Of a stretch of DNA of 32,000 nt, positions 6,437-22,493 are shown one piece after another. Position 1 is the first letter of the stretch. Every line of letters starts with the position of its first letter. A program made the position numbers and the translations under genes. The notes under the pieces were generated by a model. The model made no database searches and had not been told where the DNA came from. It saw only the letters and a program-made list of their open reading frames with translations. Source of the DNA: Candidatus Saccharimonadota bacterium (lineage in GTDB: Archaea; Nanohalarchaeota; Nanosalinia; Nanosalinales; Nanosalinaceae); the NCBI GenBank assembly GCA_001761425.1, contig CP012986.1, forward strand, positions 630,001 to 662,000, given 5' to 3'.

Positions 6437-6486
6437 GTAGTTCGAAAAACCGGGAATTTTTATCTTTTTCTTAACAGAAAGTGTCT

Positions 6487-8016: not shown

Positions 8017-8021
8017 TGTAT

Positions 8022-9955: not shown

Positions 9956-9965
9956 TGTATAACCT

Positions 9966-10958
9966 CTATATTAGGCCTTGGTCCTCTAAAACGTTTCTGA
10001 TCTCAGTTCTGTTTTCATATTCTTCGTCTTCCCGAGGCCTTCTGTTCAATGGTGCGCGAGGCGTCCCGAAGTCAAAGCCAAGAAGATTTACTGCGTACTG
10101 AACGCTGATAGGGTTCTTCTCTCCTGGCTGGAACATCGCATCGTGCAGCGGTCTCAGTTCCCGGTTTCTCTCGAATGCAGTCTGGGCGTCTTCTTCCTGG
10201 AATCCGAGTCTCCAGACATCCACTACTCCTTCCGGATGAACGTTCGCAGAAACCGAAATCCCGAAGCTGCCGCCCTGTTCAAAGACGAAGTGGTTCGCAG
10301 CATCGTCTCCTGATCCGAAATAGAAATCACTGAGTCCTTCCTCCTGCTCGCTTCCTCTGGAAGCCGTGCTCGAGAAGCTGATATCTTCAGCAGCTTCGAG
10401 TCTTCTACCGATCTCATGGATCTGCCGGAAGTCAAGAGAAGCCTCTTTGATCCCGATTATCCCGTCGATTCTGGCGAGTTCTACCGTGGTTTCTGCCTCG
10501 ATGTTTCTACCGGTTCTACCCGGCACGTTGTAGGCGATTATCGGTTTTTCAAGATTTTCCGCCAATGTTTCATAATGTTCGATTATCAGGTCCTGTGGAG
10601 GACAGTTCTGGTAGGGTGAGATCATCAGGTGGGCGTCGATATCTGCCTCTTCTTCGATCCTGGATGCGAGTTCAAGTGTCTGCTGGGTCGAGTTCATTCC
10701 ATCACCAGCGATGACAGGCAGATCCGTCATCTCAGATATTCTACGGACGAACTCTACGTGTTCGTCGTACTCCAGGTTTTCTCCTCCGTGATCTCCGAGT
10801 GTCGCTGCATGTCCTGTACATCCTGCAGGAACGATTCCATGGACGCCGTTTTCTTCAAGGTATTCGATATGGTTTTCTGCGGCCTCATAGTTTATCGAGC
10901 CGTCGTCGCTGATAGGTGTCGGCAGCGCAGGAAAAATTCCTTCAGGTTTGAAACTCAT
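9966..10958 (-). CDS. dapA: 4-hydroxy-tetrahydrodipicolinate synthase
   Basis: GIFPALPTP...GVHGIVPAGCTGHAATL, YNVPGRTG and GIKEAS (Schiff-base Lys region). It contains an acidic insertion of about 30 aa (SSTASRGSEQEEGLSDFYFGSGDD). Confidence 0.85.
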   Translation of the reverse strand: MSFKPEGIFPALPTPISDDGSINYEAAENHIEYLEENGVHGIVPAGCTGHAATLGDHGGENLEYDEHVEFVRRISEMTDLPVIAGDGMNSTQQTLELASRIEEEADIDAHLMISPYQNCPPQDLIIEHYETLAENLEKPIIAYNVPGRTGRNIEAETTVELARIDGIIGIKEASLDFRQIHEIGRRLEAAEDISFSSTASRGSEQEEGLSDFYFGSGDDAANHFVFEQGGSFGISVSANVHPEGVVDVWRLGFQEEDAQTAFERNRELRPLHDAMFQPGEKNPISVQYAVNLLGFDFGTPRAPLNRRPREDEEYENRTEIRNVLEDQGLI

Positions 10959-10980
10959 AGTCTATCACCAGTATTTGATC

Positions 10981-11170
10981 CTTCATTTCGAATTTCGTAA
11001 TCAGTCATACGGGACTTTATCAGGCGCAGGTAATCGTCGTCCATACAACAGCAATCAATCGCGAAAGCTTAAAAACTCTTCTATATTCGAAGAAAACTTT
11101 TCGGAAATCATAACTACGTAATGGTACCAGTTAAATTTTCGAAGATTACTTAAAGCTTTTCGAGAAATGG
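10981..11170. promoter_or_regulatory. Divergent dapA/lysS control region with repeated TTTCGA-type boxes
   Basis: ATTTCGAATTTCG (10985-10997), ATTCGAAG (11085-11092), CTTTTCGGAAAT (11097-11108), ATTTTCGAAGAT (11135-11146) and CTTTTCGAGAAAT (11156-11168). Also inverted CGAAAGCTT (11062-11070) and AAGCTTTTCG (11153-11162). A TATA-like TTTCTATAAAC lies about 40 bp before the lysS ATG. Confidence 0.3.
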
Positions 11171-11301
11171 AGTTTTACAATGAGCGGTGAATGTTTTAAG
11201 CAACGACACATATACACGCAGGACTCCGTACGAGTCTGCAGTTGAAAATCTTTCTATAAACGCAGCTTCAGCTCTATTCGCCAGCGTCTCAGGTGGTTCT
11301 T

Positions 11302-12747
11302 ATGTCGAGTGAACGGGAACAACGCCTGGAACAGCTCAGGTCACGAAGAGAAAACGGCGAGGCCTTTGCGTACAGCTTTGATCGCTCACATACCATAAGG
11401 GAACTCCAGGAACTCGATGAAGAAGATAGGGATCTTCCTGACAGGGAATTTTCCACAGCCGGAAGAGTTATGGAGGTCAGAGATTTCGGAGGCCTTTTGT
11501 TCCTTGACTTGAGAGATGCCAGAAGCGAGATTCAGGTGATGGTGCGTGAAAACGAAGAGGCCTTACAGACCATTGAAGACGTCTACAGGGGAGATTTCAT
11601 AGGAGTAACGGGAACACTGACGTATACCGATAGAGGAGAGTTCTCCCTTGAGGCGTTGGATGTAGAGATTTTGACGACAGCTGTCAGACCGATACCATCC
11701 AAACACTTCGGCGTTGAAGACGAGGAACTCCGTTACAGGGACAGGCCTCTACATCTGACAATGGATATGGAGGCTCGGGATAGGTTCAGGACGAGAAGCG
11801 AGATCATTTCAGAGCTGAGAAGTTTTCTTGAAAGCCGTGAGTTCATGGAGGTTGAGACGCCGACTATCCAGCCGGTTTACGGAGGTGCGAACGCTGAGCC
11901 GTTCGAAACCCACGTCAACGACAGGGATATGGATGCGTATCTCAGGATTTCGCCGGAGCTGTATCTCAAAAGACTTATCGTCGGTGGTTACGAGCGTATC
12001 TTCGAGATTGCGACGAACTTCAGGAACGAATCGATTGATACAACGCATAACCCTGAGTTCACGATGATGGAGCTGTATCAGGCCTACGCTGACTACGAGG
12101 ATATGATGGAACTGACAGAAGAGCTTGTAGAACACATAGCAGTGGAGGTTCTTGGAGAAACGGTCGTCGAGTACCGTGGAGAGGAAATTGATCTCTCAGC
12201 ACCGTGGAGAAGAATGACTATGCACGAAGCCATAGAGGAACATGGAGGCCTTGAGGTTGAAGAGATGAGCGACGAAGAACTGAGAGAAGCAATGGATGAA
12301 CTTGGGATCGAGCTTGATTCAGGGTTTGAGAGAGGATTGGCGATCGCGGAGATTTTCGAGGAGGTCGCGGAGGAAGAGCTGGTCCAGCCGACCCATATCA
12401 CCGATTATCCGGAGGAGACCACCCCGCTCTGCATGGATCACAGGAGTGAAGAAGGACTTATCGAGCGGTTTGAATCCTTCATCGCCGGTATGGAGCTGGC
12501 GAATGCTTACACTGAGCTACGTGATCCTATCCGACAACGGGAGCACTTTGAAAGAGAACATCAGCGTCAGGAGGAAGGAGATGACAAAGCACATCCTCTG
12601 GACATGGAGTTTGTAGAAGCCCTGGAGCTGGGCATGCCTCCGACCGGAGGCCTTGGAATCGGAATCGATAGACTGGTGATGATTCTGACAGATCAGGAAT
12701 CTATCCGGGATGTCCTCTTCTTTCCGATGATGGGTGAGGAAGAATGA
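11302..12747 (+). CDS. lysS: Lysyl-tRNA synthetase, class II (bacterial/eukaryotic type), full length
   Basis: N-terminal OB anticodon-binding region GRVMEVRDFGGLLFLDLRDARSEIQVMV. Motif 2 region FRNESIDTTHNPEFTMMELY and motif 3 GMPPTGGLGIGIDRLVMILT. The track ORF starts at GTG 11293, but ATG 11302 is more likely. Confidence 0.9.
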   Translation: MSSEREQRLEQLRSRRENGEAFAYSFDRSHTIRELQELDEEDRDLPDREFSTAGRVMEVRDFGGLLFLDLRDARSEIQVMVRENEEALQTIEDVYRGDFIGVTGTLTYTDRGEFSLEALDVEILTTAVRPIPSKHFGVEDEELRYRDRPLHLTMDMEARDRFRTRSEIISELRSFLESREFMEVETPTIQPVYGGANAEPFETHVNDRDMDAYLRISPELYLKRLIVGGYERIFEIATNFRNESIDTTHNPEFTMMELYQAYADYEDMMELTEELVEHIAVEVLGETVVEYRGEEIDLSAPWRRMTMHEAIEEHGGLEVEEMSDEELREAMDELGIELDSGFERGLAIAEIFEEVAEEELVQPTHITDYPEETTPLCMDHRSEEGLIERFESFIAGMELANAYTELRDPIRQREHFEREHQRQEEGDDKAHPLDMEFVEALELGMPPTGGLGIGIDRLVMILTDQESIRDVLFFPMMGEEE

Positions 12748-12787
12748 AAACCTTTCAGTCCTCTTTTTTCTCTGCGGGGAATGAGAT

Positions 12788-14020
12788 ATGAATGAGAAGC
12801 TTGAGATCGGAGGCCTTGCAGCGGAGGAAATAGTGGAAGACCACGGTACTCCCTTGTTTGTCTATGACGCGGAGAGGATCAGGGACCAGTACAGGAAACT
12901 TGATGATGCCTTTTCCTCACGGTACGATGATTTTATGATCAACTTTGCGGTGAAATCTAATTTTAACCCGATTATCGCCCGTTTGCTCGTAGAAGAGGGA
13001 GCAGGTCTTGACTGTGCTTCAAAGGCGGAGATACTGCTTGCGAATGAAATCGGAGCGGACGAGGTAATGTATACTGCGCCGTACAACAGGAAGGATGAAA
13101 TAGAGTACGCTATTGAACACGGTGCGACTGTGAATCTTGATTCGATCTTTCTCCCGGAGAAGATAGATGAGATGCCGGAGGAGATATGTTTCAGGATAGA
13201 TCCTGGCATCGGAGAAGGCGACCATGGTCTTGTCTTCGGAGGCGGCGACACAAAGTTTGGAATACCTGAGGAGAGAGCTGTTGAAGCTTATAGAAAGGCT
13301 AAGGAACGTGGAGCGGAGAAGTTCGGTATCCACATGATGACAGGATCAAACGTCAGGAATCCAGAGTACTTCGGACAGATAACGGAGAAACTACTGGAGA
13401 TCGCCGGAGAAATCGCTGAGGAGCTGGATATAGAGTTCGAGTTTGTAGATGTCGGCGGAGGCCTGGGAGTGCCTTACAGGCCTGGAGACGAGGAACTGGA
13501 TATTGAAAGAACTGGTGAAAACATTATAGAAAAATTCCAGGAAGGAATCGAAAAATATGATATCGGAAGGCCTCAGCTCAGGATTGAACCGGGCAGGTAT
13601 CTCGTGGCGCAGTCAGGCTATCTTCTATCCCGTGTAACCGGTGTAAAGAAGAAAGTAGGCACAGAGTTCGTAGGAATTGACACAGGGATGCATCACAACC
13701 TGAGGCCTATGCTACTCGACGCCTACCACGAGATCAGGCTGGCAGAAGATGTTGAAAAGCCTGTAGACGGGAAGAAAACTGTTGTCGGCCCCGTCTGCTC
13801 CTCCATAGATGTGATGGCGGAGGACCGTGAGCTTCCGGAGATGAGCGAAGGAGATCTGGTTTCCATAGAGGATGTCGGTGCTTACGGCTTCACCATGGCA
13901 TCTCACTGGAATTCAAGGCCTCTACCCGCAGAAGTTTTGGTCGATGACGGAGAAGCAGAAGTTATACGTAAACGTGAAGGCCTGAGAGATGTCTTTCACG
14001 GCACCGGGCTGGAGAAATAG
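12788..14020 (+). CDS. lysA: Diaminopimelate decarboxylase
   Basis: Fold-III PLP decarboxylase pattern (FAVKSN, GGGLGVPY, EPGRYLV, CSSIDV, GAYG), next to the dap genes. Confidence 0.85.
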   Translation: MNEKLEIGGLAAEEIVEDHGTPLFVYDAERIRDQYRKLDDAFSSRYDDFMINFAVKSNFNPIIARLLVEEGAGLDCASKAEILLANEIGADEVMYTAPYNRKDEIEYAIEHGATVNLDSIFLPEKIDEMPEEICFRIDPGIGEGDHGLVFGGGDTKFGIPEERAVEAYRKAKERGAEKFGIHMMTGSNVRNPEYFGQITEKLLEIAGEIAEELDIEFEFVDVGGGLGVPYRPGDEELDIERTGENIIEKFQEGIEKYDIGRPQLRIEPGRYLVAQSGYLLSRVTGVKKKVGTEFVGIDTGMHHNLRPMLLDAYHEIRLAEDVEKPVDGKKTVVGPVCSSIDVMAEDRELPEMSEGDLVSIEDVGAYGFTMASHWNSRPLPAEVLVDDGEAEVIRKREGLRDVFHGTGLEK

Positions 14021-14043
14021 TGAAAGAAGAATAGGGAAGTTTC

Positions 14044-14062
14044 AAAGGCCGCGGAGGCCTTT
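14044..14062. terminator. Hairpin between convergent lysA and dapD (AAAGGCC-GCGGA-GGCCTTT)
   Basis: A 7-bp perfect stem with a 5-nt loop. It overlaps the dapD stop codon. Whether it acts as a terminator is speculative. Confidence 0.25.
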
Positions 14063-14933
14063 AGTCCATTCTGAGTGTGTCTTCCAGCTCTACGGCGTCT
14101 TCCTCGTATTCTACTGCTACGACAATCGGTTTCTGGACTGATTCGTCTTCGTCGAAGAGTTCGTGGTCGCTGACACTGGATTCTTTGGTTCTTCTGAACG
14201 CTGTTCTTTCGCTCGGGATCTCTCCTTCGAGAACCTCTCCTTCTACGAGGTCGTAGACTTCGATTCCCGGGCTTAGAAGGAGTTCTTCTCCTGTGTTGAC
14301 GTTGTCTCCGATTTGTGCTCCTCCCGTGATCCGGCTTCCTGCTCCGATGGATACATTATCGCCGATTACGACAGGAACCTGTTCTGCTGGGTCGAGTACG
14401 CCTCCGATCGTGGTATTTGCGCCGACGTGACCGTTTTCTCCCATCTGTGCGGCGGATCCAAACGTCACGTTGGAATCCACCATGGTATCGTCGTCGACGT
14501 ATGCTCCGATGTTGACATAGGCCTCGCTCATCACTGTGGAACCGTCTCCGAAATAGTTCCCTACTCTCAGAGTTGTTCCAGGCGTATTTCTTGCTCCTTT
14601 ATCCAGGAATTCTTCAACGTTTCGTGTGGGCATGACGTCGTGGTATACTTCTCCGTTTTCGGCGTCTTCACGGGCCATGTTCTCCGCTAAGCCGAAAATG
14701 GAGAGGATTCCTTCTTTCACCCATGCATTGGCCTCCCATTCGCCGTCGTACTGATCGGCAGCTCTGACATCTCCCTGCTCAAGCGCGTAGATAAACTCGT
14801 TCAGAAGCTCTTCCTGCTCTTCTTCATCGTACTGGGAAGGATCCTCGTTCAGGACAGTCATTCTATCTTGAAGGGTTTCAGGCTCGTAATTAGAAAAACT
14901 TTCGCGGTAATCATCTTCGATAGTAACCGACAT
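14061..14933 (-). CDS. dapD: 2,3,4,5-tetrahydropyridine-2,6-dicarboxylate N-acyl(succinyl)transferase
   Basis: N-terminal helical domain with AWVKEGILSIFGL, followed by left-handed beta-helix hexapeptide repeats (IGAYVDDDTMVDSNVTFGSAAQMGENGHVGANTTIGGVL...IGDNVSIGAGSRI). Confidence 0.8.
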   Translation of the reverse strand: MSVTIEDDYRESFSNYEPETLQDRMTVLNEDPSQYDEEEQEELLNEFIYALEQGDVRAADQYDGEWEANAWVKEGILSIFGLAENMAREDAENGEVYHDVMPTRNVEEFLDKGARNTPGTTLRVGNYFGDGSTVMSEAYVNIGAYVDDDTMVDSNVTFGSAAQMGENGHVGANTTIGGVLDPAEQVPVVIGDNVSIGAGSRITGGAQIGDNVNTGEELLLSPGIEVYDLVEGEVLEGEIPSERTAFRRTKESSVSDHELFDEDESVQKPIVVAVEYEEDAVELEDTLRMD

Positions 14934-15092
14934 ACACCTACTAACCCCTTAAATACTTTATAACTTCCGGAGAACAAAAATAGAAACCTTCGAAAGACAG
15001 AGAAAAAATACAGAAATCGGAGAAATATGAATTAGAGTCTAAGACATAGTCCGATTTAAAAAACTCTCCTCTCAAGGCCTTTACACGTAGAA

Positions 15093-15166
15093 GGGCTCTT
15101 AGTTCAGTCTGGCAGAACGTCTCCCTGGCACGGAGAAGGCCCTGGGTTCAAATCCCAGAGAGTCCA
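15093..15166 (+). tRNA. tRNA-Ala (anticodon GGC), intronless
   Basis: GGGCTCT/AGAGTCC acceptor with G3:U70. Anticodon stem TCTCC/GGAGA with loop CTGGCAC. T arm CTGGG-TTCAAAT-CCCAG. The first 27 nt are identical to the tRNA at 803. Confidence 0.95.
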
Positions 15167-15339
15167 TAGCTTTAGGCTATGACATCCCAAAGTTTAGTGG
15201 AAAATACTGTGATTTTTTAACTGGGAGTATTTTTTCTCTTTGAAAGATTTGTTTTTGGAGGCCTTTAGTGGTGTTTATGTAGAGTGATCAATTGGGGGTC
15301 GGGGTAGGTGATAAAAACCGGCGGGTGGATTATAGGATT

Positions 15340-15888
15340 ATGGGTCTCGAGTATGATGAAGACAATGTTTATGATACAGTTTTTCCTTTCAGGGTTCTGC
15401 GTAATGTGTATCATTCGGATGGCGGTACCTACCATGTTCAGATGAATCTTAAGGCAGGTATGGACCAGGAGTACGCTGAAGGAGTTTTGGATCTGTTGGA
15501 TGGCCTGGGTTTTGTCTATCCTGTGCCTGACACTGATCCACAGCTGTTCAAGCTCCGTGTTCAGGGCCTTGTAGATGCTTGGTACAGGCTCTGGGAACAG
15601 GAGGTGGAGCATATTCCTACTGCTCCGGAGAACTTTGACAGGTTCCTGGAGAGATATATCAAGTCGTATCTTGAGACGGAGAGAAATTCCACGATCCGTG
15701 AGATGCTGGTCAAAGACTTTTTCTGGGGTATGAAGACCCTTGATCTAAGCGAGGAAGACGAGTTCCTGGACCCGAGCTTCAAAGAATTCGAGTTAAGACT
15801 GGAGGATCGGTACGAAAGCGATAGACACGCTCATGAACATGTACAGGAAGCTATGGGCTTCAGAGAAGAAAAAGGAGTAGAGGAATAA
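15340..15888 (+). CDS. Hypothetical acidic protein (182 aa from ATG 15340; the track starts at TTG 15292)
   Basis: Long clean ORF. No family recognised. It contains no AGGCCT at all. Confidence 0.5.
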   Translation: MGLEYDEDNVYDTVFPFRVLRNVYHSDGGTYHVQMNLKAGMDQEYAEGVLDLLDGLGFVYPVPDTDPQLFKLRVQGLVDAWYRLWEQEVEHIPTAPENFDRFLERYIKSYLETERNSTIREMLVKDFFWGMKTLDLSEEDEFLDPSFKEFELRLEDRYESDRHAHEHVQEAMGFREEKGVEE

Positions 15889-15911
15889 AGGAAGAAAGGC
15901 CTTTGAGTTCT

Positions 15912-16271
15912 CTATTTTTCTTCAAGTCTGTCGGCAGTTTCTTCCATCTGTTCTGAAATACTTCTGAGCTGGTCGATGAAGGCCTCAGTCCTGGCCGAGT
16001 ATTCTTCTTCGATCTCTATGTCTCTCAAGGCTGCTCTAAGATGTGCTTCTTTGATCTTTGCCATCATTGCTCCTTCATCCATTGTCTCATCCACTATCTC
16101 ATCAAGCATCCTTGATAGAACAGTGTTGATTACGTGAGGTACGTCTCCGTCCAGTGTCTGGTCCTCATCCATTCTCTCACGGATAATCCTTCTGATCCTG
16201 CCCTCTGAAAGTGCAAGGTCATCATTTTCCATCGTGCCGTAATCTTCCGGTATAAGCTTCTCCAGGTTCAT
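15912..16271 (-). CDS. Hypothetical acidic protein, possibly histone-fold-like (DUF1931-like)
   Basis: LSEGRIRRIIRERM...VPHVINTVLSRMLDEIVDETMDEG...KIKEAHLRAALRDI follows the helix-loop-helix-loop-helix spacing of archaeal histone-fold proteins, but it lacks the classic RKT loop. The function call is weak. Confidence 0.35.
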   Translation of the reverse strand: MNLEKLIPEDYGTMENDDLALSEGRIRRIIRERMDEDQTLDGDVPHVINTVLSRMLDEIVDETMDEGAMMAKIKEAHLRAALRDIEIEEEYSARTEAFIDQLRSISEQMEETADRLEEK

Positions 16272-16440
16272 ATAACAGAGAATATCGGGGAAGTTACAAA
16301 AAGGTTACAGGGGAGGCCTTCCACAGGTTTTTTGATTGGGTTTAAACAGCCTGAGACCTTTGCCTATAACGTCTTGGCGGCCGCAAAATCCTTATATAGA
16401 GAGTTTGATCGCTAAACCGTGCTTCAGCAGCTTCTATGGA

Positions 16441-16725
16441 TTAATCTTTTTCTTCCGTGTTTTTGTCAGGCCTTTCTTCTGGTGCTTCGAAGTCTGCGAT
16501 TTTCTGGTCTTTTTCTGCTCTCTCTGCTTTTTCCAGGTCTTCGAATCCGTCTGCGAGGCCTTGTGTTGCTTCCATCATTTCGCCCATTTGCTGTTCCATC
16601 ATTCCTATTTGCTGGTTCATTTTGCGTTTGATGTAGTAGAGGGTTGCTCCGATTCCGATTATTACTCCGAGTGTGAATCCGGTGATAACGCTCAGTAGAT
16701 CCATAGGGTTTTTTGAGGCCTTCAA
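16441..16725 (-). CDS. Small single-pass membrane protein with an M/Q/E-rich acidic tail
   Basis: TM helix LLSVITGFTLGVIIGIGATLYYI followed by a charged tail. The start could instead be the internal Met (MDLL, about 16704). Confidence 0.5.
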   Translation of the reverse strand: MKASKNPMDLLSVITGFTLGVIIGIGATLYYIKRKMNQQIGMMEQQMGEMMEATQGLADGFEDLEKAERAEKDQKIADFEAPEERPDKNTEEKD

Positions 16726-16807
16726 GAATTAAAGGGTGATGCCTGTTTCCCGGAAATAAAGAAGAGGGTGGGAGAAGATGTTACCTGTGCGGGAGGCCTG
16801 AAGGTTT

Positions 16808-16999
16808 TTAAGCTCTCTTTCCTTCAGACTTCCATTCGTCCACGATATTCTGGCCTTTGGACGCAGAACTTGTGGAATCGTTGTCATTCACGTGTTCATT
16901 GGCTCTGTGAATTCCTTCCTGTGTGGTTGCGTCTTCCCCCTCAAAGACTTCACCGCAGTATGGACATTCCTTAGTTTCTTCCGTCATAGTCATATTCAT
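16808..16999 (-). CDS. Small C2H2-like zinc-finger protein (63 aa)
   Basis: CPYCGEVFEGEDATTQEGIHRANEH, i.e. C-x2-C-x15-H-x4-H. Confidence 0.5.
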   Translation of the reverse strand: MNMTMTEETKECPYCGEVFEGEDATTQEGIHRANEHVNDNDSTSSASKGQNIVDEWKSEGKRA

Positions 17000-17109
17000 T
17001 ACCTTCTGATAACAAAATTAAATAGGTTTCGGTTTTTTCCCTCACTGGATAACATGTGAGAGAACGTAACATTCTTTCAGTTGGACAACTGTTAAAAATG
17101 TGGTGGAGA

Positions 17110-18222
17110 TCAACCGAGGAGGCCTTCATCTACCAGGTCTTGTTCGGTCCTGTTTCCAGAATCCGTACCTGTTGATTCCTCGTTCTCTGTTTCCGGGTAG
17201 GCCTCATTTTTTGGTTCGCACCCTTTGTTTTCCACGCTATGTTGTTTGTCGTCCACGAGTATGTCTGTCTGGATCTGGATGATACATTCCATTCCTCCTG
17301 CCGGGGCCTTGAACTCTTCGCCTTCGACGTTAAAGATTAGCTGTGCGTCTATCTCAGCTTCTGTGTATTCTCTGTTTCTCACGTGAGTTTCCAGCCAGTC
17401 ATCCATCCTCTGGTTCTTCAGGCCTACCCTGAAACGCAGTTCCTCGGTCTCTCCAGGTGCTATCATTCCTTCCTCGGCTAGCTCAGTCAGTGGCTCCGAG
17501 TTGGCTGTCCAGTTTGCTACGGTAACGTTGTTCAGATCAGCTCTGCCTCCGAAACTCGGTGTCGGAATCGGATAGCTGTTAGGATTATGCACCTTCATAT
17601 CCATCAGGACCTCGGATTCCTGCTCAGATATATCACCCCATGAGGCCTTGAAGTCCCTGACCTCTATCTCAGGCCTTATCTCTACAGAGAGACCGGATCT
17701 TGTGGTCTCGATACCTGGGCCTGTGTAGGATCCTTCTATACTTTCTAGGCTGTTCTCTATACGTGATGAGATATTTGTGCTTATCTCTTTTGAAAAGGCT
17801 TCTACGCTGAAGCTGGTTACAGGAGTATTTATCTCGACAGGTACTGAAACTGTGGAGTTTTCTCCGTTTTCAAGGTGGCTTACCCACCAGTCCGGTATTC
17901 TGCCCTGCCTAAGCTCTGTCTCAAGAGTCTTCGTATTATTCCCGGATTCAATGCTTACCTCATCGACCTTTCCCTCTGCCAGAGAGATATCGTTAATCTC
18001 TGCTTCATATCCTACGTCGATAAAGCCGACGGAAAGGCCTAAGGAGTTAGGATTGTGGATCCAGGCCTCTGAAACCACTTTAATACTATCGTCTGAGATA
18101 TTCTCCCAGTCTCCCATGTCAACGATTCCAAAGGAAGGTTTCTCAAAGTTCATAGCCATGTAGCCGGCTCCTCCGGCAAAAATCATTGTGGCTGCGAGGC
18201 CTGCGATCAGTAGATTATTCAT
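17110..18222 (-). CDS. Membrane-anchored protein with repeated LEA_2 (LEA14/WHy-like) domains
   Basis: N-terminal TM helix. Recurring beta-sandwich signatures WIHNPNSLGL and KVHNPNSYPIP (the NPN motif of LEA_2), plus a third degenerate repeat. Confidence 0.55.
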   Translation of the reverse strand: MNNLLIAGLAATMIFAGGAGYMAMNFEKPSFGIVDMGDWENISDDSIKVVSEAWIHNPNSLGLSVGFIDVGYEAEINDISLAEGKVDEVSIESGNNTKTLETELRQGRIPDWWVSHLENGENSTVSVPVEINTPVTSFSVEAFSKEISTNISSRIENSLESIEGSYTGPGIETTRSGLSVEIRPEIEVRDFKASWGDISEQESEVLMDMKVHNPNSYPIPTPSFGGRADLNNVTVANWTANSEPLTELAEEGMIAPGETEELRFRVGLKNQRMDDWLETHVRNREYTEAEIDAQLIFNVEGEEFKAPAGGMECIIQIQTDILVDDKQHSVENKGCEPKNEAYPETENEESTGTDSGNRTEQDLVDEGLLG

Positions 18223-18451
18223 ATTTCAGTAGATGTGCTGTAACGGTTAAATTAGTTTGTAACCGGGGTACTTGAAGATTTCTACTTCTTCTGAAACGTG
18301 TTTAAATCCTTTTGGAAGCCGGTGTCCTGTAAAGGATAGGCCTTGAATGGTGAAAGCTTTTGTTCAGAGAATGTATGAGCCAAGGATGCAGTAACACGAC
18401 TTTTTTCGGTTTATGCAATGAATGCACAGGCCAGCGTGTGGAAAAAGAGGA

Positions 18452-18556
18452 TTAAGGATCGGAACAGTCCCTGATCATCCCGCAGTTGAAGCATTTCAGT
18501 TCGCAGGCGACGAATTCTGTCATCTCTTCTCCGCAGTTCCAGCATTTTGTCTCCAT
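18452..18556 (-). CDS. Unannotated 34-aa Cys-rich zinc-ribbon micro-protein immediately downstream of the ferredoxin gene
   Basis: The reverse complement reads ATG...TAA = METKCWNCGEEMTEFVACELKCFNCGMIRDCSDP, with two CxxC pairs and three further Cys. It starts 6 nt after the ferredoxin stop and is below the ORF-track length cut-off. Confidence 0.45.
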   Translation of the reverse strand: METKCWNCGEEMTEFVACELKCFNCGMIRDCSDP

Positions 18557-18562
18557 AGTTTT

Positions 18563-18868
18563 TCAGTACCATTGTGGTTCCGAGATTTTGATGTCTCCAT
18601 GGACAGTGGTCTGGCAGGAAAGCCTGAAAGGGCCTTCAAGTTTTTCCTCGCCCTTGAAACGTCGGATAGTGTTTTTCTCGTCTTCCTGCATATCCGAAAG
18701 ATTATCCATGCCCTCTTCGACCTTTACACGGCATGTAGTGCAGTTACAGAAGCCTCCGCAGGCATGCATCCATTCGACACCGCCCTCAAGCAAAGCATTC
18801 AGAACTGTCTGACCCTCCTCTGCCTCTACCTCTGCATCTCTATCTATGATCTCAATTTTATGCGTCAT
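18563..18868 (-). CDS. 2Fe-2S ferredoxin (adrenodoxin/vertebrate-type pattern)
   Basis: MTHKIEIIDRD...ACGGFCNCTTCRV (C-x5-C-x2-C) and the distal RLSCQ cysteine. I prefer Met at 18868 over the track start 18916, whose extension is hydrophobic junk. Confidence 0.8.
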   Translation of the reverse strand: MTHKIEIIDRDAEVEAEEGQTVLNALLEGGVEWMHACGGFCNCTTCRVKVEEGMDNLSDMQEDEKNTIRRFKGEEKLEGPFRLSCQTTVHGDIKISEPQWY

Positions 18869-18938
18869 AACTGGAAAAGGCCTCTGAAAATACAAAAACA
18901 AACCGGAAAAAACCAAAAAAATTTGAAGAGGGAAGGCC

Positions 18939-20147
18939 TTAGATCGCTGTCGCTACTGAGAGCAGGATTGTACCTATGAGGAGCAGCATTCCAAGGATTG
19001 AGAAGTAGTTGAAGGCCTTGACTCCGTTTTCACCAGTGTATTTGTCTACGAGGCCTCCTATGATCTGTCCTCCGTCAAGTGGTTTGAACGGAAGCATGTT
19101 GACCAGGCCGATCCCTATGTTGAGGATTGCAACTGTTTCGAACAGTGAGAGGAACCAGTTCAGGATTCCTGAGTACGGCTGGTACTGATCTGTCAGCTGT
19201 GTTCCCTGTCCGAATCTTATGCCTATATAGCCGTCCCCGTCTTTCTCTGTTGCGTTTACGGTACGGACTCCTTCGCTTGTGTTCAGCGTGACCTGATCTC
19301 CAGGCCTTATGTTGCTTGCTATCTCTTTAAGCTGGCTCTGTGAGTTTATGCTTTTGCCGTTTATGCTGTAAACTGTTCCGTTGTTGAGGCCTGCCTGGGC
19401 TGCAGGATAACCGTCTTCAGCGACGTAGACAACATCTCCAGGTTCTGCTACCGCGCCCAGGATTGCTGTGGAAAGCAGTATGAAAACTATTGCTGTCAAG
19501 TAGTTCGCGAAGCTTCCGGCTCCGAGAACCTTTATGCGAGAGGTCAGACTTCCCTGATCCCACATCCCGGTGCTTTCCTCTTCTCCGTCGTTTTCATCTT
19601 TCTGCATGTGCTTTTCGTCATCGTTTGGAAGCATCTTCTCTCCCTTGGGCTCGACAAAGGCACCGGGGAAAATACCCAGTACGATCCAGCCAACAGAGTT
19701 GATCTCAAAGCCCTCGCTCCGGGCGACGATTCCATGACTTAACTCGTGTACAGTCATTAAAACCCCGATTGAGATGATCCAGTACTCGACAGGGATGAAG
19801 GATACACCTGGCTGGAAACTGCTCTCAGCTACAAGGCCTGGAAGAACGGCTGAAAGACCGCTTTCTTTTATTGAACCAGCTTGGAAAACACCTATGTACT
19901 GTGTCCCGATATAGTAACTGGCCAGCGCAATGGAGATCACTCCTGAAACCGCTGCACCCCAGCCATAGGCCTTCCAGAACCTTGGTAAACGTTTCTGTAT
20001 TGCGTCAATCTTATCTATACCGCTTTTCGTCCTGCGGTAGAAAAGTATAGAACTTCTCTGAATTTTGTTTCTGTCCTTGTACAGGAAAACTGTCAGGCCT
20101 GCGAGGAAAACAACTAGAAAAATCAGCTGCGGATCAGGTTCTAACAT
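18939..20147 (-). CDS. Site-2 protease (M50 family) with a PDZ domain
   Basis: HELSHG zinc motif in a TM helix, second motif NMLPFKPLDGG, and a PDZ-like insert (AAQAGLNNGTVYSINGKSI). Confidence 0.85.
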   Translation of the reverse strand: MLEPDPQLIFLVVFLAGLTVFLYKDRNKIQRSSILFYRRTKSGIDKIDAIQKRLPRFWKAYGWGAAVSGVISIALASYYIGTQYIGVFQAGSIKESGLSAVLPGLVAESSFQPGVSFIPVEYWIISIGVLMTVHELSHGIVARSEGFEINSVGWIVLGIFPGAFVEPKGEKMLPNDDEKHMQKDENDGEEESTGMWDQGSLTSRIKVLGAGSFANYLTAIVFILLSTAILGAVAEPGDVVYVAEDGYPAAQAGLNNGTVYSINGKSINSQSQLKEIASNIRPGDQVTLNTSEGVRTVNATEKDGDGYIGIRFGQGTQLTDQYQPYSGILNWFLSLFETVAILNIGIGLVNMLPFKPLDGGQIIGGLVDKYTGENGVKAFNYFSILGMLLLIGTILLSVATAI

Positions 20148-20283
20148 ACTTGGTAAACGAAGGCCTGAAGTTTATAATTAAATTCTTTCACCACGAACTT
20201 TCGGCCATGAGCAATCAACAGTCTCTATTCTGGACCCGGGAACTCAGGAAGTTTTCTACAGGCAAAAAAGCTGGTGAGAGCAG

Positions 20284-21894
20284 ATGACTGATCAGGAGCA
20301 ACCTTTGTTCTGGTCGGATCAGCTGGCTTTTGGAGTGAAGAGAAAATTTGATGACAGGGATACGTATGTCTGTGCCTCGGGGATCAGTCCCTCTGGCTTT
20401 GTCCACATCGGGAATTTCAGGGAGATAATAACCACAGATTTCGTTGTAAAAAGTCTCAAGCACTATGACGAGGACACACGTTTTATCTACTCATGGGACG
20501 ACTACGACAGGTTCAGAAAAGTACCGGAAAACGTGCCAGAAGAATTTGAAAAGTACATAGGCCTTCCACTGTCTGAAGTACCGGATCCTGAAGGCTGTCA
20601 CGGTAGTTACGCCGAACACTTTGAGAAAAAGCTGGAAGACGAGCTTGACGACATGCATATGGATATAGAGTTCATCAGGCAGTCCGAAATGTTCCAGGAC
20701 GGAGAGTACGCAGACCTTATCAAGAAAGCAATGAACAGCAGAGATACGATAAGAAGGATACTTAACCAGTACAGGCAGGAACCGCGTCCAGAAGGATGGT
20801 ATCCGCTCCAAATTTACTGCGTAGAGTGTGGAAAAGATTTCACAGAGATCAAGGCCTATGACGGCGAATATACGGTAGAATATTACTGTGAAGAATGCGG
20901 TAAGGAATTTGAAATCAATTTCAAGGAAAATGACTCTGTGAAACCGCCTTGGAGAGTTGACTGGCCGATGAGATGGTTTTACGAAAATGTCTCGTTCGAA
21001 CCCGGAGGAAAAGATCATTCAGCAGCAGGATCTTCAAGAGACACTGGTAAAGAGATAGTAGAGGAAGTCTACGGTGCTGAGGCCCCGGTCTACCAGATGT
21101 ATGACTTTGTAAGGCCTAAAGGAAGCGACAAGAAAATCTCATCTAGCTCCGGTGAGAATACTTTGCGTCTGAAGGATATGAAAGAGGTCTACAGTCCTGA
21201 AATGATCCGTTTCCTGTTCTCCCAGACGAAACCGAAGACAGTCTTTAACCTTGCATTCGACGAGGAGATCATCCAGATCTACGACCGTTTTGACAGGATA
21301 GAACAGAACTACTATGGTGAAGGCCTCGATAACGAGAAGAAACAGAGGCATCAGGAAAGAGTTTACGAACTTGCGATGGTCAAGGTACCTCAGGAAAAGC
21401 CTCTCAGAGTTCCTTTCAAGCATGCGTCACTGATAGCCCAGACAGTACCTGAAGACGAATGGAGTGAGAAAGGCCTTCAAGTGCTTCAGAAGACCGGTCA
21501 TCTTCCAGAAGAGATCTCCGAGGACGGAAAACAGCAGGTCCTGGACAGGATGAGACGTGCGAAAAACTGGGCAAGAGAGTATGCTCCAGAGGATTACAGA
21601 TTCGAGATAAACTACGAACTTCCTCAGGAGATAGTTGAAAACTTTTCTGATAACCAGGTCAAGGCCTTACAGCTTTTGAAGGAGCTACTGGAGGAAGAAG
21701 AATTTAACGGCTCTGAGGAACTTGACGGAGAGATTTTTGCAGTTAAGGATGATTCAGAGCTTGGTACAGTCAAGTTTTTCGATACTGCGTACCAGGTACT
21801 GCTGTCTAGAGAACAGGGGCCGAGACTGTCAACGCTTATCCTTTCAATTGGACAAAGTGAAACCGTTAAGATACTTGAACAGGTGAAACAGTGA
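20284..21894 (+). CDS. lysK: Lysyl-tRNA synthetase, class I (archaeal type)
   Basis: SGISPSGFVHIGNFREI (the HIGN variant of HIGH typical of LysRS-I), a zinc-binding CVECG...CEECG insert and a KISSSSG (KMSKS-like) loop. 536 aa. Confidence 0.85.
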   Translation: MTDQEQPLFWSDQLAFGVKRKFDDRDTYVCASGISPSGFVHIGNFREIITTDFVVKSLKHYDEDTRFIYSWDDYDRFRKVPENVPEEFEKYIGLPLSEVPDPEGCHGSYAEHFEKKLEDELDDMHMDIEFIRQSEMFQDGEYADLIKKAMNSRDTIRRILNQYRQEPRPEGWYPLQIYCVECGKDFTEIKAYDGEYTVEYYCEECGKEFEINFKENDSVKPPWRVDWPMRWFYENVSFEPGGKDHSAAGSSRDTGKEIVEEVYGAEAPVYQMYDFVRPKGSDKKISSSSGENTLRLKDMKEVYSPEMIRFLFSQTKPKTVFNLAFDEEIIQIYDRFDRIEQNYYGEGLDNEKKQRHQERVYELAMVKVPQEKPLRVPFKHASLIAQTVPEDEWSEKGLQVLQKTGHLPEEISEDGKQQVLDRMRRAKNWAREYAPEDYRFEINYELPQEIVENFSDNQVKALQLLKELLEEEEFNGSEELDGEIFAVKDDSELGTVKFFDTAYQVLLSREQGPRLSTLILSIGQSETVKILEQVKQ

Positions 21895-22493
21895 GAGAGA
21901 AAGTCAAAGAAGGCTATGAAGAAGGAGACTATGAGGGAGACTATAGAGAAGGCAGAGATGTAAGAGAAAAGGAAAAAGAGCTTTTCGAAGGCCTTTTCAA
22001 TGAGATTTCTGGCCCTGAAGTTCTCGATCTTGGCTGTGGTACAGGCCTTCCATTTGACCAATACCTTGTAGACCAGGGATTTGAGGTTAAAGGCCTTGAT
22101 ATCTCAGACAAGCACGTCAAAAAAGCCAGGGAAAATATTCCTGAAGCAGAGTTTTTCCAGGGAGATTTCTTCGAGAAAGAGTTTGGAGATAACAGTTTTG
22201 ACGCTGTAGTCAGTTTTTATGCTATCTTCCATATACCAAGGGAAGAACACGAAAAACTCTTCACTCAGATACGTGAATGGGTGAAAGATGACGGAGCTGT
22301 TCTGCTGACTCTGGGACCGGAAAAAATGGATGAACATCGTGGAGAAATCGGCGGTGAGGAGATGCTCTGGAGCTCTTACAGCCCAGAGAAAAACCTTGAA
22401 CTTCTAAAAGAATCAGGTTTCAAAATCCTGGAAACATACACTGAGGACTACAGGGAAGAAACCCATTTTTGGGTCCTAGCCCAACCCGAATAA
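21891..22493 (+). CDS. Class I SAM-dependent methyltransferase
   Basis: Motif I VLDLGCGTG and post-I D(I)S. The GTG start overlaps the lysK stop (GTGA). Confidence 0.8.
   Translation: MREKVKEGYEEGDYEGDYREGRDVREKEKELFEGLFNEISGPEVLDLGCGTGLPFDQYLVDQGFEVKGLDISDKHVKKARENIPEAEFFQGDFFEKEFGDNSFDAVVSFYAIFHIPREEHEKLFTQIREWVKDDGAVLLTLGPEKMDEHRGEIGGEEMLWSSYSPEKNLELLKESGFKILETYTEDYREETHFWVLAQPE

What the first reader, a model, noticed from the sequence alone, without database searches (positions are those of the whole stretch)
11302..21894. Complete class II and class I lysyl-tRNA synthetases both encoded within 10 kb
11302..12747 has every hallmark of a full-length class II LysRS: the OB anticodon domain, FRNE...HNPEFT and GGLGIGIDR. 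20284..21894 is a typical class I LysRS, with PSGxxHIGNxRE, a Cys-rich insert and a KISSSSG loop. Organisms normally have only one class. Co-occurrence is rare, the classic cases being the Methanosarcinaceae and the Bacillus cereus group, where dual or specialised tRNA charging has been discussed. Each copy here sits in a distinct context: class II in the lysine-biosynthesis cluster, class I heading an operon with a SAM methyltransferase and a rhomboid protease. Both carry host-typical AGGCCT density (7 and 6 sites), so neither looks freshly acquired. The possibilities include condition-specific isozymes such as a lysine-limitation or analogue-resistance copy, charging of a special tRNA, or a non-translational role.
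Basis: partly seen in the sequence, partly recalled or inferred. Interest (0 to 1): 0.65.

Follow-up and report, generated by a model that had tools for sequence, protein, structure and literature searches.

The report
Two lysyl-tRNA synthetase classes, nanohaloarchaeon
A tiny salt-loving archaeon (Nanohaloarchaeota) carries intact genes for both unrelated kinds of the enzyme that loads lysine onto tRNA, and relatives show this is an old shared trait in which single lineages lack the class II gene at its usual place or have it in the class I gene's place.

Summary
ORF 11302-12747 is a full-length class II LysRS and ORF 20284-21894 is a full-length class I LysRS. Both score above the curated NCBIfam cut-offs and both keep their catalytic motifs.

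The window comes from a nanohaloarchaeon; its contig is 1.125 Mb. The pair is not peculiar to this genome. Both genes lie on one contig in at least seven nanohaloarchaeal assemblies, including the closed genome of cultured Nanohalobium constans and the 2011 Nanosalina J07AB43 assembly. Four of these also share the window's gene order. Class II copies from Nanohaloarchaea form one clade with 100/100 bootstrap support. Both proteins are acidic and host-like in composition, so neither is a recent import.

Class II travels with a LysM-like Lrp regulator, a decaying lysine-biosynthesis cluster and a conserved 23-nt upstream motif. Class I sits in a conserved slot: M50 protease, lysS1, rhomboid, TraB. 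N. occultus lacks class II at the syntenic site. In one lineage (L088, L097) class II occupies the class I slot.

My best reading is two working LysRS enzymes, with class II under lysine-responsive control; that control is inferred, not shown. I found no paper mentioning the pair. I rate it a new member of a known kind, of moderate interest.

The parts
6481..6885 (+). Lrp/AsnC-family (feast/famine) regulator, LysM-like
   Evidence: It carries Pfam HTH_AsnC-type and AsnC_trans_reg domains. Its best NCBIfam hit is LysM (NF040947) at 109 bits, below the 180-bit cut-off. It stays near lysS2 in 12 of 21 related class II loci compared, and sits directly upstream of lysS2 in L009, which has none of the lysine-biosynthesis genes tested.
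6895..10958 (-). asd, aspartate kinase, dapB, dapA (lysine/DAP pathway genes, co-oriented)
   Evidence: NCBIfam hits: asd NF006416 at 261 bits (cut-off 232), aspartate kinase, dapB TIGR00036 at 223 bits (cut-off 122), and dapA TIGR00674 at 189 bits, below its 206 cut-off.
10959..11301 (.). Divergent control region between dapA and lysS2. It holds FFRP-like boxes TTCGAATTTCGTA (10987-10999) and TTCTATATTCGAA (11079-11091), a TATA-like CTTAAAG (11149-11155), the conserved motif CAATGAGCGGTGAATGTTTTAAG (11178-11200), a possible mini-ORF (11180-11245) and a second motif AAAATCTTTCTA (11245-11256).
   Evidence: The motif occurs once in the window even when 3 mismatches are allowed. It matches exactly ahead of lysS2 in L001, L002, L003, L005, L009, L010 and L081 and in L087. 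In L007 it lies ahead of an upstream ORF that overlaps the lysS2 start. I found no consensus RNA structure and no credible Rfam match. Palindromic boxes are listed.
11302..12747 (+). Class II lysyl-tRNA synthetase (lysS2), 481 aa
   Evidence: HMM and PDB matches are. LysU residues E240, R262, E264, H270, F274, E278, Y280, E414, E421, N424, E428 and R480 are kept. It matches 84 of 88 near-invariant class II columns.
12788..14020 (+). Diaminopimelate decarboxylase (lysA), 40 nt downstream of lysS2
   Evidence: TIGR01048 scores 354.7 bits against a cut-off of 297.9. The gap contains a T6 run. The lysS2-lysA adjacency is also seen in L001, L002, L003, L087 and L090, with a lysA fragment left after lysS2 in J07AB43.
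14061..14933 (-). dapD (tetrahydrodipicolinate N-succinyltransferase)
   Evidence: NF008808 scores 207.7 bits against a cut-off of 204.
15093..15166 (+). tRNA-Ala(GGC), a syntenic anchor downstream of the lysS2 module
   Evidence: Found. It holds the same position in L002, L003, L005, L007, L009 and L081.
18939..20147 (-). M50 (RseP-like) site-2 protease, divergent from lysS1
   Evidence: PF02163 scores 79 bits. It is the conserved left neighbour of lysS1 in L081, L082, L084 and L087.
20207..20287 (+). Upstream ORF of 26 codons (MSNQQSLFWTRELRKFSTGKKAGESR). Its TGA overlaps the lysS1 ATG.
   Evidence: Read directly from the sequence. Comparable uORFs whose N-termini resemble that of LysRS1 occur in N. 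constans and N. occultus but not in VS9-1.
20284..21894 (+). Class I lysyl-tRNA synthetase (lysS1), 536 aa
   Evidence: HMM and PDB matches are. It matches 21 of 21 columns that are at least 95% conserved among 125 class I representatives.
21891..22493 (+). SAM-dependent methyltransferase, overlapping the lysS1 stop by 4 nt
   Evidence: Methyltransf_25, Methyltransf_11 and related domains. It holds the same position only in L087 and is absent from L081, L082, L084 and L085.
22497..23135 (+). Rhomboid protease, the conserved downstream partner of lysS1
   Evidence: PF01694 scores 82 bits. lysS1-rhomboid followed by TraB on the opposite strand is seen in L082, L084 and L085.
23785..24915 (-). 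TraB/PrgY/GumN-family protein, right border of the conserved class I slot
   Evidence: PF01963 scores 102.8 bits. Synteny is shown.

Best explanation
The window is from a nanohaloarchaeon (Nanosalina/Nanohalobium-like, DPANN). It encodes two functional lysyl-tRNA synthetases of unrelated folds.

Both genes are old, vertically inherited residents of Nanohaloarchaeota. The class I gene occupies a conserved housekeeping slot: M50 protease, lysS1, rhomboid, TraB. The class II gene belongs to a lysine module. That module comprises a LysM-like Lrp regulator, the DAP-pathway genes, lysS2-lysA and tRNA-Ala. It has its own conserved promoter-proximal motif, flanked by Lrp-type half-sites.

My proposed mechanism has three parts:
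- Both enzymes charge tRNA-Lys.
- Class II expression is tuned to lysine supply through the LysM-like regulator and/or the conserved leader. Class I provides the basal activity, or the reverse.
- This division of labour has kept the dual state stable, while single lineages have resolved it either way.

Shown: gene identity, intactness, lineage-wide distribution, synteny, motif conservation, absence of class II at the syntenic site in N. occultus, and class II occupying the class I slot in L088 and L097.

Inferred: catalytic activity, lysine-responsive regulation, and which enzyme is the main one.

Organism:
- The best class II and class I hits are Ca. Nanohalobium, Nanosalina and Nanohaloarchaea.

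Both classes on one contig:
- The window itself.
- L087, the closest relative, with the same layout.
- N. constans CP040089, with class II at 10001-11440 and class I at 18547-20148.
- Nanosalina J07AB43.
- NHA25, plus JGI contigs of 207 kb and 60 kb, joined by shared contig length.

Vertical descent and long residence:
- Nanohaloarchaeal class II is monophyletic at 100/100 bootstrap.
- Nanohaloarchaeal class I falls in a single 50%-identity cluster; the next representatives are at most 44% identical.
- pI is 4.36 and 4.71, and GC3 and AGGCCT density match neighbouring genes.

Purifying selection on both:
- Window versus N. constans: class II 73%, class I 64% identity.
- Three further genome pairs give 68-73% for class II against 63-64% for class I.

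Lysine module:
- The LysM-like regulator is linked to lysS2 in 12 of 21 related class II loci compared.
- In L009 it sits directly upstream of lysS2 with no lysine-biosynthesis gene between them.
- N. constans keeps only the regulator, a dapA-like gene and lysS2.

Control region:
- The 23-nt motif is conserved ahead of lysS2.
- A TATA-like TTTAA(A/G)G lies 22-23 nt upstream of the motif in 7 of 10 loci (read).
- WWTTCG(A/T)AG half-sites resemble published FFRP sites (PMC2715240).
- Sulfolobus LysM binds just upstream of BRE/TATA at lysW (PMC3597687).

Resolution of the dual state:
- N. occultus has Metallophos followed directly by tRNA-Ala, with no regulator, dapA or lysS2 between them.
- L088 and L097 have M50, then lysS2, then rhomboid and TraB, with no class I remnant.
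Against: - There are no expression, TSS or enzymatic data.
- The regulator scores below the LysM equivalog cut-off (109 against 180 bits).
- The motif may be nothing more than a promoter or start-of-transcript signal.
- In the L007/L089/L086 clade the motif's GTG is called as the start of an S-Me-THD-family ORF.
- A T6 run lies between lysS2 and lysA, so co-transcription is unproven.
- All 14 nanohaloarchaeal class II proteins aligned carry D->H151 and N->R407 at positions otherwise invariant in 68-69 other class II LysRS. This could signal an altered function.
- Class I has its own conserved uORF containing Lys codons, so class I might be the regulated copy.
- tRNA-Lys genes and whole-genome presence or absence could not be examined with these tools.
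Confidence: 0.6

Rival explanations
1. The roles are reversed. Class II is the main translational LysRS, and class I is the ancillary or regulated copy, controlled through its overlapping uORF. This would parallel stationary-phase LysRS1 in Bacillus cereus.
For: - Class II is more conserved than class I across distant genome pairs (73 against 64%, 72 against 63%).
- In L088 and L097 class II sits in the class I slot with no class I nearby.
- A uORF with Lys codons ends on the lysS1 start codon in three genera.
- B. cereus LysRS1 is the ancillary, regulated copy (PMC2916919).
Against: - N. occultus keeps class I while lacking class II at the syntenic site.
- Nanosalina VS9-1 shows no class II within 10 kb of class I or beside tRNA-Ala(GGC).
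- It is class II that travels with an amino-acid-type regulator.
Confidence: 0.2
2. One enzyme has a specialised or non-translational job. Candidates are charging only one tRNA-Lys isoacceptor or an odd tRNA, Ap4A synthesis, supplying Lys-tRNA for lipid or cell-envelope modification, or conferring resistance to lysine analogues.
For: - The lineage-wide D->H151 and N->R407 changes lie at otherwise invariant class II positions.
- Two enzymes have been retained for a long time in genomes of about 1 Mb.
- Precedents exist. M. barkeri LysRS1 and LysRS2 act together on tRNA-Pyl in vitro, and the B. cereus pair acts on tRNA-Other (PMC2916919).
- From my own knowledge (Jester et al. [quoted passage not shown]
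Against: - Both proteins keep full anticodon-binding domains and all known catalytic and lysine-binding residues.
- No unusual tRNA lies in the window or in 15 related loci.
- Either gene appears dispensable in some lineage.
Confidence: 0.15
3. The pairing is an artefact (assembly chimera or mis-binned contig), or one gene was recently transferred horizontally.
For: Some public MAG labels around these genes are wrong. L001 is labelled Colwellia. The 'Methanosarcinales' contigs L014 and L016 cluster with Woesearchaeota.
Against: - The two genes are 7.5 kb apart on a 1.125-Mb contig.
- The same gene order occurs in a closed genome of a cultured strain and in independent assemblies.
- Both are acidic and share the host's extreme AGGCCT enrichment.
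- Class II is monophyletic within the lineage.
Confidence: 0.02

Closest known systems
Methanosarcinaceae LysRS1 + LysRS2
   Same: An archaeal lineage in which a class I and a class II LysRS coexist across the family. Both are canonical full-length enzymes.
   Different: - The nanohaloarchaeal pair is syntenic, within about 7-10 kb.
- Class II is tied to a lysine-biosynthesis and LysM-like regulator module.
- No pyrrolysine system is evident in the window.
- The genomes are about 1 Mb symbiont genomes.
- The two 'Methanosarcinales'-labelled class II sequences (L014, L016) fall outside the nanohaloarchaeal clade in my tree, among Woesearchaeota and other DPANN sequences; no Methanosarcinaceae isolate was sampled.
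Bacillus cereus/thuringiensis LysS (class II) + LysK (class I, T-box regulated)
   Same: It is a dual-class pair with a division of labour. One copy is housekeeping, and the other is regulated by nutritional status (PMC2916919).
   Different: - In Bacillus the class I copy is the horizontally acquired, regulated, ancillary one, controlled by a T-box riboswitch.
- Here both copies are ancient in the lineage.
- The candidate regulated copy is class II, through a protein regulator or leader motif. No RNA structure or credible Rfam match was found.
E. coli LysS / LysU isozymes
   Same: Two LysRS genes in one genome, one constitutive and one condition-induced (PMC9437257). The window's class II enzyme aligns to LysU at E = 1.7e-124 with the active site conserved.
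   Different: LysS and LysU are same-class paralogues. Here the two enzymes are structurally unrelated.
Sulfolobus LysM regulon (Lrp-type, lysine-responsive activator of lysWXJK)
   Same: An Lrp/FFRP regulator is encoded beside lysine-biosynthesis genes. Its operator lies just upstream of BRE/TATA (PMC3597687). Here the window regulator's best hit is LysM, and FFRP-like boxes lie upstream of a TATA-like element.
   Different: - The score is below the equivalog cut-off.
- The pathway is DAP, not the AAA/LysW pathway.
- An aminoacyl-tRNA synthetase as target has not been reported to my knowledge.
- Binding is untested.

Membership tests
Class II lysyl-tRNA synthetase (TIGR00499 / NF001756; subclass IIb) | Full-length match to curated family HMMs above the trusted cut-off | tested here: met
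   NF001756 scores 609.2 bits (cut-off 468). TIGR00499 scores 541.6 (cut-off 427.6), covering model positions 4-494 of 496.
Class II lysyl-tRNA synthetase (TIGR00499 / NF001756; subclass IIb) | N-terminal OB-fold anticodon-binding domain plus class II catalytic core with motifs 2 (fRNE) and 3 (GxGxGxDR) | tested here: met
   PF01336 scores 54.5 bits at residues 52-124, and PF00152 scores 307.5 bits at 140-477. NFRNE and GGLGIGIDR are present.
Class II lysyl-tRNA synthetase (TIGR00499 / NF001756; subclass IIb) | Lysine-, ATP- and Mg-binding residues as in E. coli LysU (residue list recalled from my own knowledge of the LysU structures) | tested here: met
   In the alignment to LysU (1E1O), E240, R262, E264, H270, F274, E278, Y280, E414, E421, N424, E428 and R480 are kept; F426 is Y. 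The window matches 84 of 88 near-invariant columns. D->H151 and N->R407 are lineage-wide exceptions outside these sites.
Class II lysyl-tRNA synthetase (TIGR00499 / NF001756; subclass IIb) | Aminoacylates tRNA-Lys | not testable with these tools
   This needs an in vitro assay at high salt.
EpmA/PoxA (GenX) and LysX paralogues of class II LysRS | EpmA lacks the anticodon-binding domain and matches TIGR00462. LysX carries an N-terminal MprF domain. | tested here: not met
   TIGR00462 scores 251.6 bits, below its 286.9 cut-off, and matches only residues 163-474; the OB domain is present. The LysX model scores 512.8 against 742 and matches only its LysRS part.
Class I lysyl-tRNA synthetase (TIGR00467 / PF01921) | Full-length match to curated family HMMs above the cut-off | tested here: met
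   TIGR00467 scores 505.3 bits (cut-off 147.55), covering positions 2-511 of 515. PF01921 scores 410.4 bits.
Class I lysyl-tRNA synthetase (TIGR00467 / PF01921) | HIGH-type motif, KMSKS-type loop, Cys-rich zinc insertion and C-terminal anticodon-binding domain, as in P. horikoshii LysRS-I | tested here: met
   HIGN, KISSSSG and the CVEC/CEEC pairs are present. The protein aligns to 1IRX over residues 9-531 against 3-519 at E = 3e-127. It matches 21 of 21 columns that are at least 95% conserved in 125 class I representatives.
Class I lysyl-tRNA synthetase (TIGR00467 / PF01921) | tRNA-dependent lysine activation and tRNA-Lys charging | not testable with these tools
   Biochemical assay required.
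Dual-class LysRS organisms (Methanosarcinaceae, B. cereus group, some Streptomyces) | Both classes encoded in one genome as intact genes | tested here: met
   The window and six other nanohaloarchaeal assemblies (seven in all) carry both on one contig.
LysM (NF040947) lysine-responsive Lrp-type regulator | Equivalog-level HMM score; lysine-modulated binding to lysine-gene promoters | tested here: inconclusive
   LysM is the best hit, but at 109.1 bits against a 180 cut-off. Family-level Pfam domains are present. Ligand and DNA binding were not tested.

The most novel reading that the evidence does not exclude
Nanohaloarchaeota would be a living record of LysRS class switching. Under this reading the ancestor held both classes. 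Most members still do. Individual lineages have resolved to class I only (N. occultus) or to class II only, with class II moved into the class I slot (L088, L097).

The dual state would be stabilised because class II is wired to a lysine-sensing circuit. That circuit would comprise a LysM-like FFRP operator plus a leader at the start of the transcript. The leader contains a possible leaderless mini-ORF with invariant Phe-Lys codons. This would be the first amino-acid-responsive control of an archaeal aminoacyl-tRNA synthetase.
Probability: 0.2. Interest if true: 0.7.

Novelty: new member of a known kind. Interest (0 to 1): 0.5.

Why it matters
LysRS is the one aminoacyl-tRNA synthetase that exists in both structural classes. 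How one class replaces the other is a standing question in the evolution of the genetic code machinery. Dual-class organisms are the expected intermediates, yet they are rare: 39 of 2588 genomes in one survey, mostly Bacillus and Streptomyces.

A whole archaeal lineage appears to keep both, despite genomes of about 1 Mb. Its members also show class II missing from its usual place in one lineage and class II sitting in the class I slot in another. That would give a natural comparative system for asking what keeps two non-homologous enzymes with the same function in place. Cultured co-cultures such as Nanohalobium constans with Halomicrobium exist, so the system is tractable.

The link between class II and a lysine regulator and biosynthesis module is a concrete, testable hypothesis for division of labour.

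Tried and rejected
- **Riboswitch or structured leader ahead of lysS2.** The Rfam gathering scan of the window found only two tRNAs. A permissive scan of 10950-11400 gave one chance-level hit at E = 5. RNAalifold on nine leaders found no consensus pairs. Rejected.
- **Leader peptide as the sole explanation for the motif.** The third codon positions of GGT, TTT and AAG are invariant in nine sequences. That points to a nucleotide-level constraint. I keep the mini-ORF only as a possibility.
- **Sister group of the nanohaloarchaeal class I enzyme.** The exhaustive representative search gave unnamed clusters at 44% identity or less. A cluster look-up returned no organism names. Unresolved.
- **Whole-genome census of both classes.** The tools return only 10 kb either side of a hit. 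Absence from the top-120 lists is not reliable: N. constans class I, at 64% identity, is missing although the gene exists. I therefore claim only locus-level presence or absence.
- **Genome and metagenome scans with the class II protein**. The remainder were bacterial or other DPANN sequences at 42-51% identity.
- **Literature.** No paper in the library combines Nanohaloarchae* with lysyl-tRNA synthetase, LysRS or lysyl. Three papers hold 'lysine', 'tRNA synthetase' and 'Nanohaloarchaea' together; the two I opened are irrelevant. Narasingarao et al. 2012 could not be opened.
- **PoxA/EpmA, LysX or truncated-enzyme reassignment.** Rejected by the HMM scores and domain content.

Full report
**1. 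Observation**

The window holds two uninterrupted ORFs at the stated coordinates.

The first, 11302-12747, is a class II LysRS.
- It scores 609 bits on NF001756 (cut-off 468) and 541.6 on TIGR00499 (cut-off 427.6), nearly end to end.
- It has the OB anticodon domain and the class II core.
- It aligns to G. stearothermophilus LysRS (3A74, E = 7e-131) and E. coli LysU (1E1O, E = 1.7e-124).
- In the LysU alignment E240, R262, E264, H270, F274, E278, Y280, E414, E421, N424, E428 and R480 are all kept, and F426 is Y.
- EpmA/GenX and LysX models score below their cut-offs and cover only the catalytic part.

The second, 20284-21894, is a class I LysRS.
- It scores 505 bits on TIGR00467 (cut-off 147.55) and 410 bits on PF01921.
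- It aligns over its whole length to P. horikoshii LysRS-I (1IRX, E = 3e-127), including HIGN and the KISSSSG loop.
- Against 125 class I representatives it keeps 21 of 21 columns that are at least 95% conserved.
- The class II protein keeps 84 of 88 near-invariant columns.

In one survey only 39 of 2588 genomes had both classes (PMC5388404).

**2. Organism and distribution**

The best hits for both proteins are Candidatus Nanohalobium, Nanosalina and other Nanohaloarchaea. The window's own contig is 1.125 Mb.

Both classes are common in the lineage. About 95 class II clusters reach 60% identity or more, and at least 120 class I clusters reach 56% or more.

The two genes share a contig in these assemblies:
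- the window;
- its closest relative L087, with an identical layout;
- N. constans LC1Nh, a closed genome, with class II at L081 10001-11440 and class I at 18547-20148;
- Nanosalina J07AB43, where several genes including class I are split, probably by sequencing errors;
- NHA25 and two JGI contigs, joined by shared contig length.

In a neighbour-joining tree of 85 class II sequences the nanohaloarchaeal copies form one clade with 100/100 bootstrap support. That clade is separate from a cluster of Woesearchaeota, Pacearchaeota, Nanoarchaeia and Micrarchaeaceae, and from bacteria.

All nanohaloarchaeal class I proteins fall in one 50%-identity cluster. The next representatives are at most 44% identical.

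Both proteins are acidic (pI 4.36 and 4.71). Their GC3 and AGGCCT density match neighbouring genes.

Across distant genome pairs class II is at least as conserved as class I: 73 against 64% for window versus N. constans, with 72/63, 68/63 and 73/64 for three other pairs.

Both genes are therefore old, vertically inherited and under purifying selection. Chimera or recent transfer is excluded.

**3. Anatomy and context**

*Class II module.* The gene order is:
- Metallophos;
- a LysM-like Lrp regulator (6481-6885);
- asd, aspartate kinase, dapB and dapA on the minus strand;
- a divergent control region;
- lysS2, then lysA;
- dapD on the minus strand;
- tRNA-Ala(GGC).

Comparing 21 related class II loci shows the biosynthetic genes in every stage of decay.
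- The set of asd, aspartate kinase, dapB, dapA, lysA and dapD is present in L002, L003, L085 and L087.
- It is partial in L005, L090 and L092.
- Only a dapA-like gene remains in N. constans.
- None of these genes is found in L009.

Through all of this the regulator and lysS2 stay together.

*Motif.* A 23-nt motif, CAATGANNGGTGNNNGNTTTAAG, lies 102 nt before the lysS2 ATG (window 11178-11200).
- It is unique in the window even with 3 mismatches allowed.
- It matches exactly ahead of lysS2 in L001, L002, L003, L005, L009, L010 and L081 and in L087.
- L088 carries a 2-mismatch version.
- In L007 it lies about 1 kb upstream, ahead of a 353-aa ORF that overlaps the lysS2 start.
- In that clade (L007, L089, L086) the motif's GTG is read as the start of this upstream ORF. 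The L089 ORF is an S-Me-THD-family protein.

*Promoter geometry.* A TATA-like TTTAA(A/G)G sits 22-23 nt upstream of the motif in 7 of 10 loci (read). The transcript probably starts at or near the motif.
- The motif's ATG opens a mini-ORF of 11-22 codons, M-x-G-(E/G/D)-(C/R)-F-K.
- The invariant third codon positions argue for a nucleotide-level constraint instead.

*Other features.* I found no conserved RNA structure and no credible Rfam family.

Upstream of the TATA-like box, half-sites of the form WWTTCG(A/T)AG recur. They include 13-bp palindromes: TTCGAATTTCGTA and TTCTATATTCGAA in the window, and a perfect TACGATATTCGTA in L005. These resemble published archaeal FFRP optima, TTCGA[AWT]TCGAA and TACGA[AWT]TCGTA (PMC2715240). 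Sulfolobus LysM likewise binds just upstream of BRE/TATA at lysW (PMC3597687).

*Class I slot.* The conserved order is Fer2, M50 protease on the minus strand, lysS1, rhomboid, then TraB on the minus strand. It is seen in the window, L087, N. occultus, VS9-1 and, inverted, J07AB43. The methyltransferase between lysS1 and rhomboid occurs only in the window and L087.

A 26-codon uORF (20207-20287) ends on the lysS1 start codon. Its N-terminus (MSNQQSLFW) resembles that of LysRS1 (MTDQEQPLFW). Similar uORFs exist in N. constans and N. occultus.

**4. Resolution of the dual state**

In N. occultus, Metallophos is followed directly by tRNA-Ala. The regulator, dapA and lysS2 are missing at the syntenic site, while class I is kept.

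In L088 (242.8-kb JGI contig) and L097 the reverse appears. Their class II proteins are 90% identical to each other.
- lysS2, with its own upstream motif, sits between M50 and rhomboid-TraB.
- That is exactly where class I sits elsewhere.
- tblastn finds no class I remnant within 10 kb even at E <= 10.

I could not establish whole-genome presence or absence with these tools.

**5. Mechanism**

*Shown:* two intact genes, ancient in the lineage, each in a conserved and distinct context. Class II is physically tied to a lysine-type regulator and a conserved control region.

*Inferred:*
- Both enzymes charge tRNA-Lys.
- lysS2 is lysine-responsive through the LysM-like regulator and/or its leader.
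- lysS1 supplies basal activity.

The reverse assignment is a serious rival. Class II is more conserved, class I has a uORF, and class II replaces class I in one lineage.

A specialised role for one enzyme cannot be excluded. All 14 nanohaloarchaeal class II proteins aligned carry D->H151 (RYLDL to RPLHL, LysU D173) and N->R407 (ELNDP to ELRDP, LysU N430). Those positions are D in 69 of 69 and N in 68 of 69 other class II sequences.

**6. Comparison and novelty**

The closest analogues are four.
- Methanosarcinaceae: both classes across the family.
- The B. cereus group: class II housekeeping, with class I regulated by a T-box and expressed in stationary phase (PMC2916919).
- E. coli LysS and LysU: constitutive and inducible copies of the same class (PMC9437257).
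- The Sulfolobus LysM regulon.

The nanohaloarchaeal case is a further lineage of the known dual-class kind. Its distinctive features are conserved synteny, linkage of class II to a lysine module, genomes of about 1 Mb, and apparent resolution in both directions.

The genes are annotated in public genomes. No paper in the searchable library mentions the co-occurrence.

Verdict: a real feature, ordinary in biochemistry as far as can be seen, moderately interesting for aaRS evolution and archaeal gene regulation.

Noticed in passing
whole window (140 sites); also L002, L008, L084, L087, L088, L097: AGGCCT is the commonest hexamer in the window, with 140 sites against 6.9 expected from base composition. 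It sits in genes and spacers in proportion to their length, in all three codon phases, with R-AGGCCT-Y flanks. The roughly 18-27-fold excess recurs in some nanohaloarchaeal loci, for example VS9-1 at 104 against 4.4. Other loci have none: NHA25 shows 0 against 5.1 expected, and L004 and L006 show 0. N. constans shows 2 against 3.8. This looks like a lineage-specific DNA-level process of unknown nature.
   Followed up: partly
window 11178-11200 (motif), 11149-11155 (TATA-like), 11180-11245 (mini-ORF), 11245-11256 (second motif): A conserved control region accompanies class II lysS across Nanohaloarchaeota. It consists of a TATA-like box, the motif CAATGANNGGTGNNNGNTTTAAG 22-23 nt further on, and then AAAAYCTT(T)CTA. 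It also reads as a possibly leaderless mini-ORF with invariant TTT-AAG (Phe-Lys). I found no RNA structure and no credible Rfam match.
   Followed up: partly
window 20207-20287; L081 and L082 upstream of class I: A uORF ends with a TGA that overlaps the lysS1 ATG. Its first 9 or so residues resemble the N-terminus of LysRS1 itself, although the DNA is only about 60% identical by my own hand count. It is conserved in three genera, absent in VS9-1, and contains Lys codons. It may be an old 5' duplication now used for translational coupling or control.
   Followed up: partly
L088 8630-15150; L097 4-3125: In one nanohaloarchaeal lineage the class II lysS gene occupies the M50/rhomboid/TraB slot that holds class I elsewhere. 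No class I remnant lies nearby. This looks like an in-situ non-orthologous replacement.
   Followed up: partly
L006 3637-4950 (-): One nanohaloarchaeal MAG contig carries a second, divergent class II LysRS-like gene beside lysA and back to back with the regular lysS2. It is 47% identical to the window enzyme. Its NF001756 score of 472.8 bits is just above the cut-off, and its TIGR00499 score is just below. In the tree it groups on a long branch with a 'Thermoproteus UBA157' sequence.
   Followed up: partly
window residues H151 and R407 of the class II protein (DNA about 11752-11754 and 12520-12522): Two lineage-wide substitutions occur at positions invariant in the other class II LysRS sampled. 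RYLDL becomes RPLHL, and ELNDP becomes ELRDP. They may be a coupled pair, and their structural meaning is unknown.
   Followed up: no
window 12788-14020 versus L001, L002, L003, L087: lysA is 84-91% identical to the window copy in L003 and L087 but only 55-56% in L001 and L002. In those two loci the flanking lysS2 is 83-86% identical, and L002's other lysine-cluster genes are 78-89% identical. This suggests allelic or xenologous replacement of lysA within the cluster.
   Followed up: no
L007 8943-10004; L089 8685-9737; P0065 (793 aa): In one clade an S-Me-THD family gene (PF06032/PF20906) is inserted between the leader motif and lysS2 and overlaps the lysS2 start. One JGI gene call, P0065, is a 793-aa class II protein. 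I suspect, but did not check, that it merges such an upstream ORF with lysS2.
   Followed up: no
L001, L014, L016: Public MAG labels look wrong. A contig labelled 'Colwellia polaris' (L001) is plainly nanohaloarchaeal, with class II 83% identical and a lysA gene immediately downstream, as in the window. Two 'Methanosarcinales' contigs carry class II genes that cluster with Woesearchaeota.
   Followed up: no
window 30301-30960 and 30989-31681: Two adjacent metallo-beta-lactamase-fold (Lactamase_B_3) paralogues lie next to tRNA-Leu(TAG), with a FIST-domain protein at 4500-5714. I did not examine them further.
   Followed up: no
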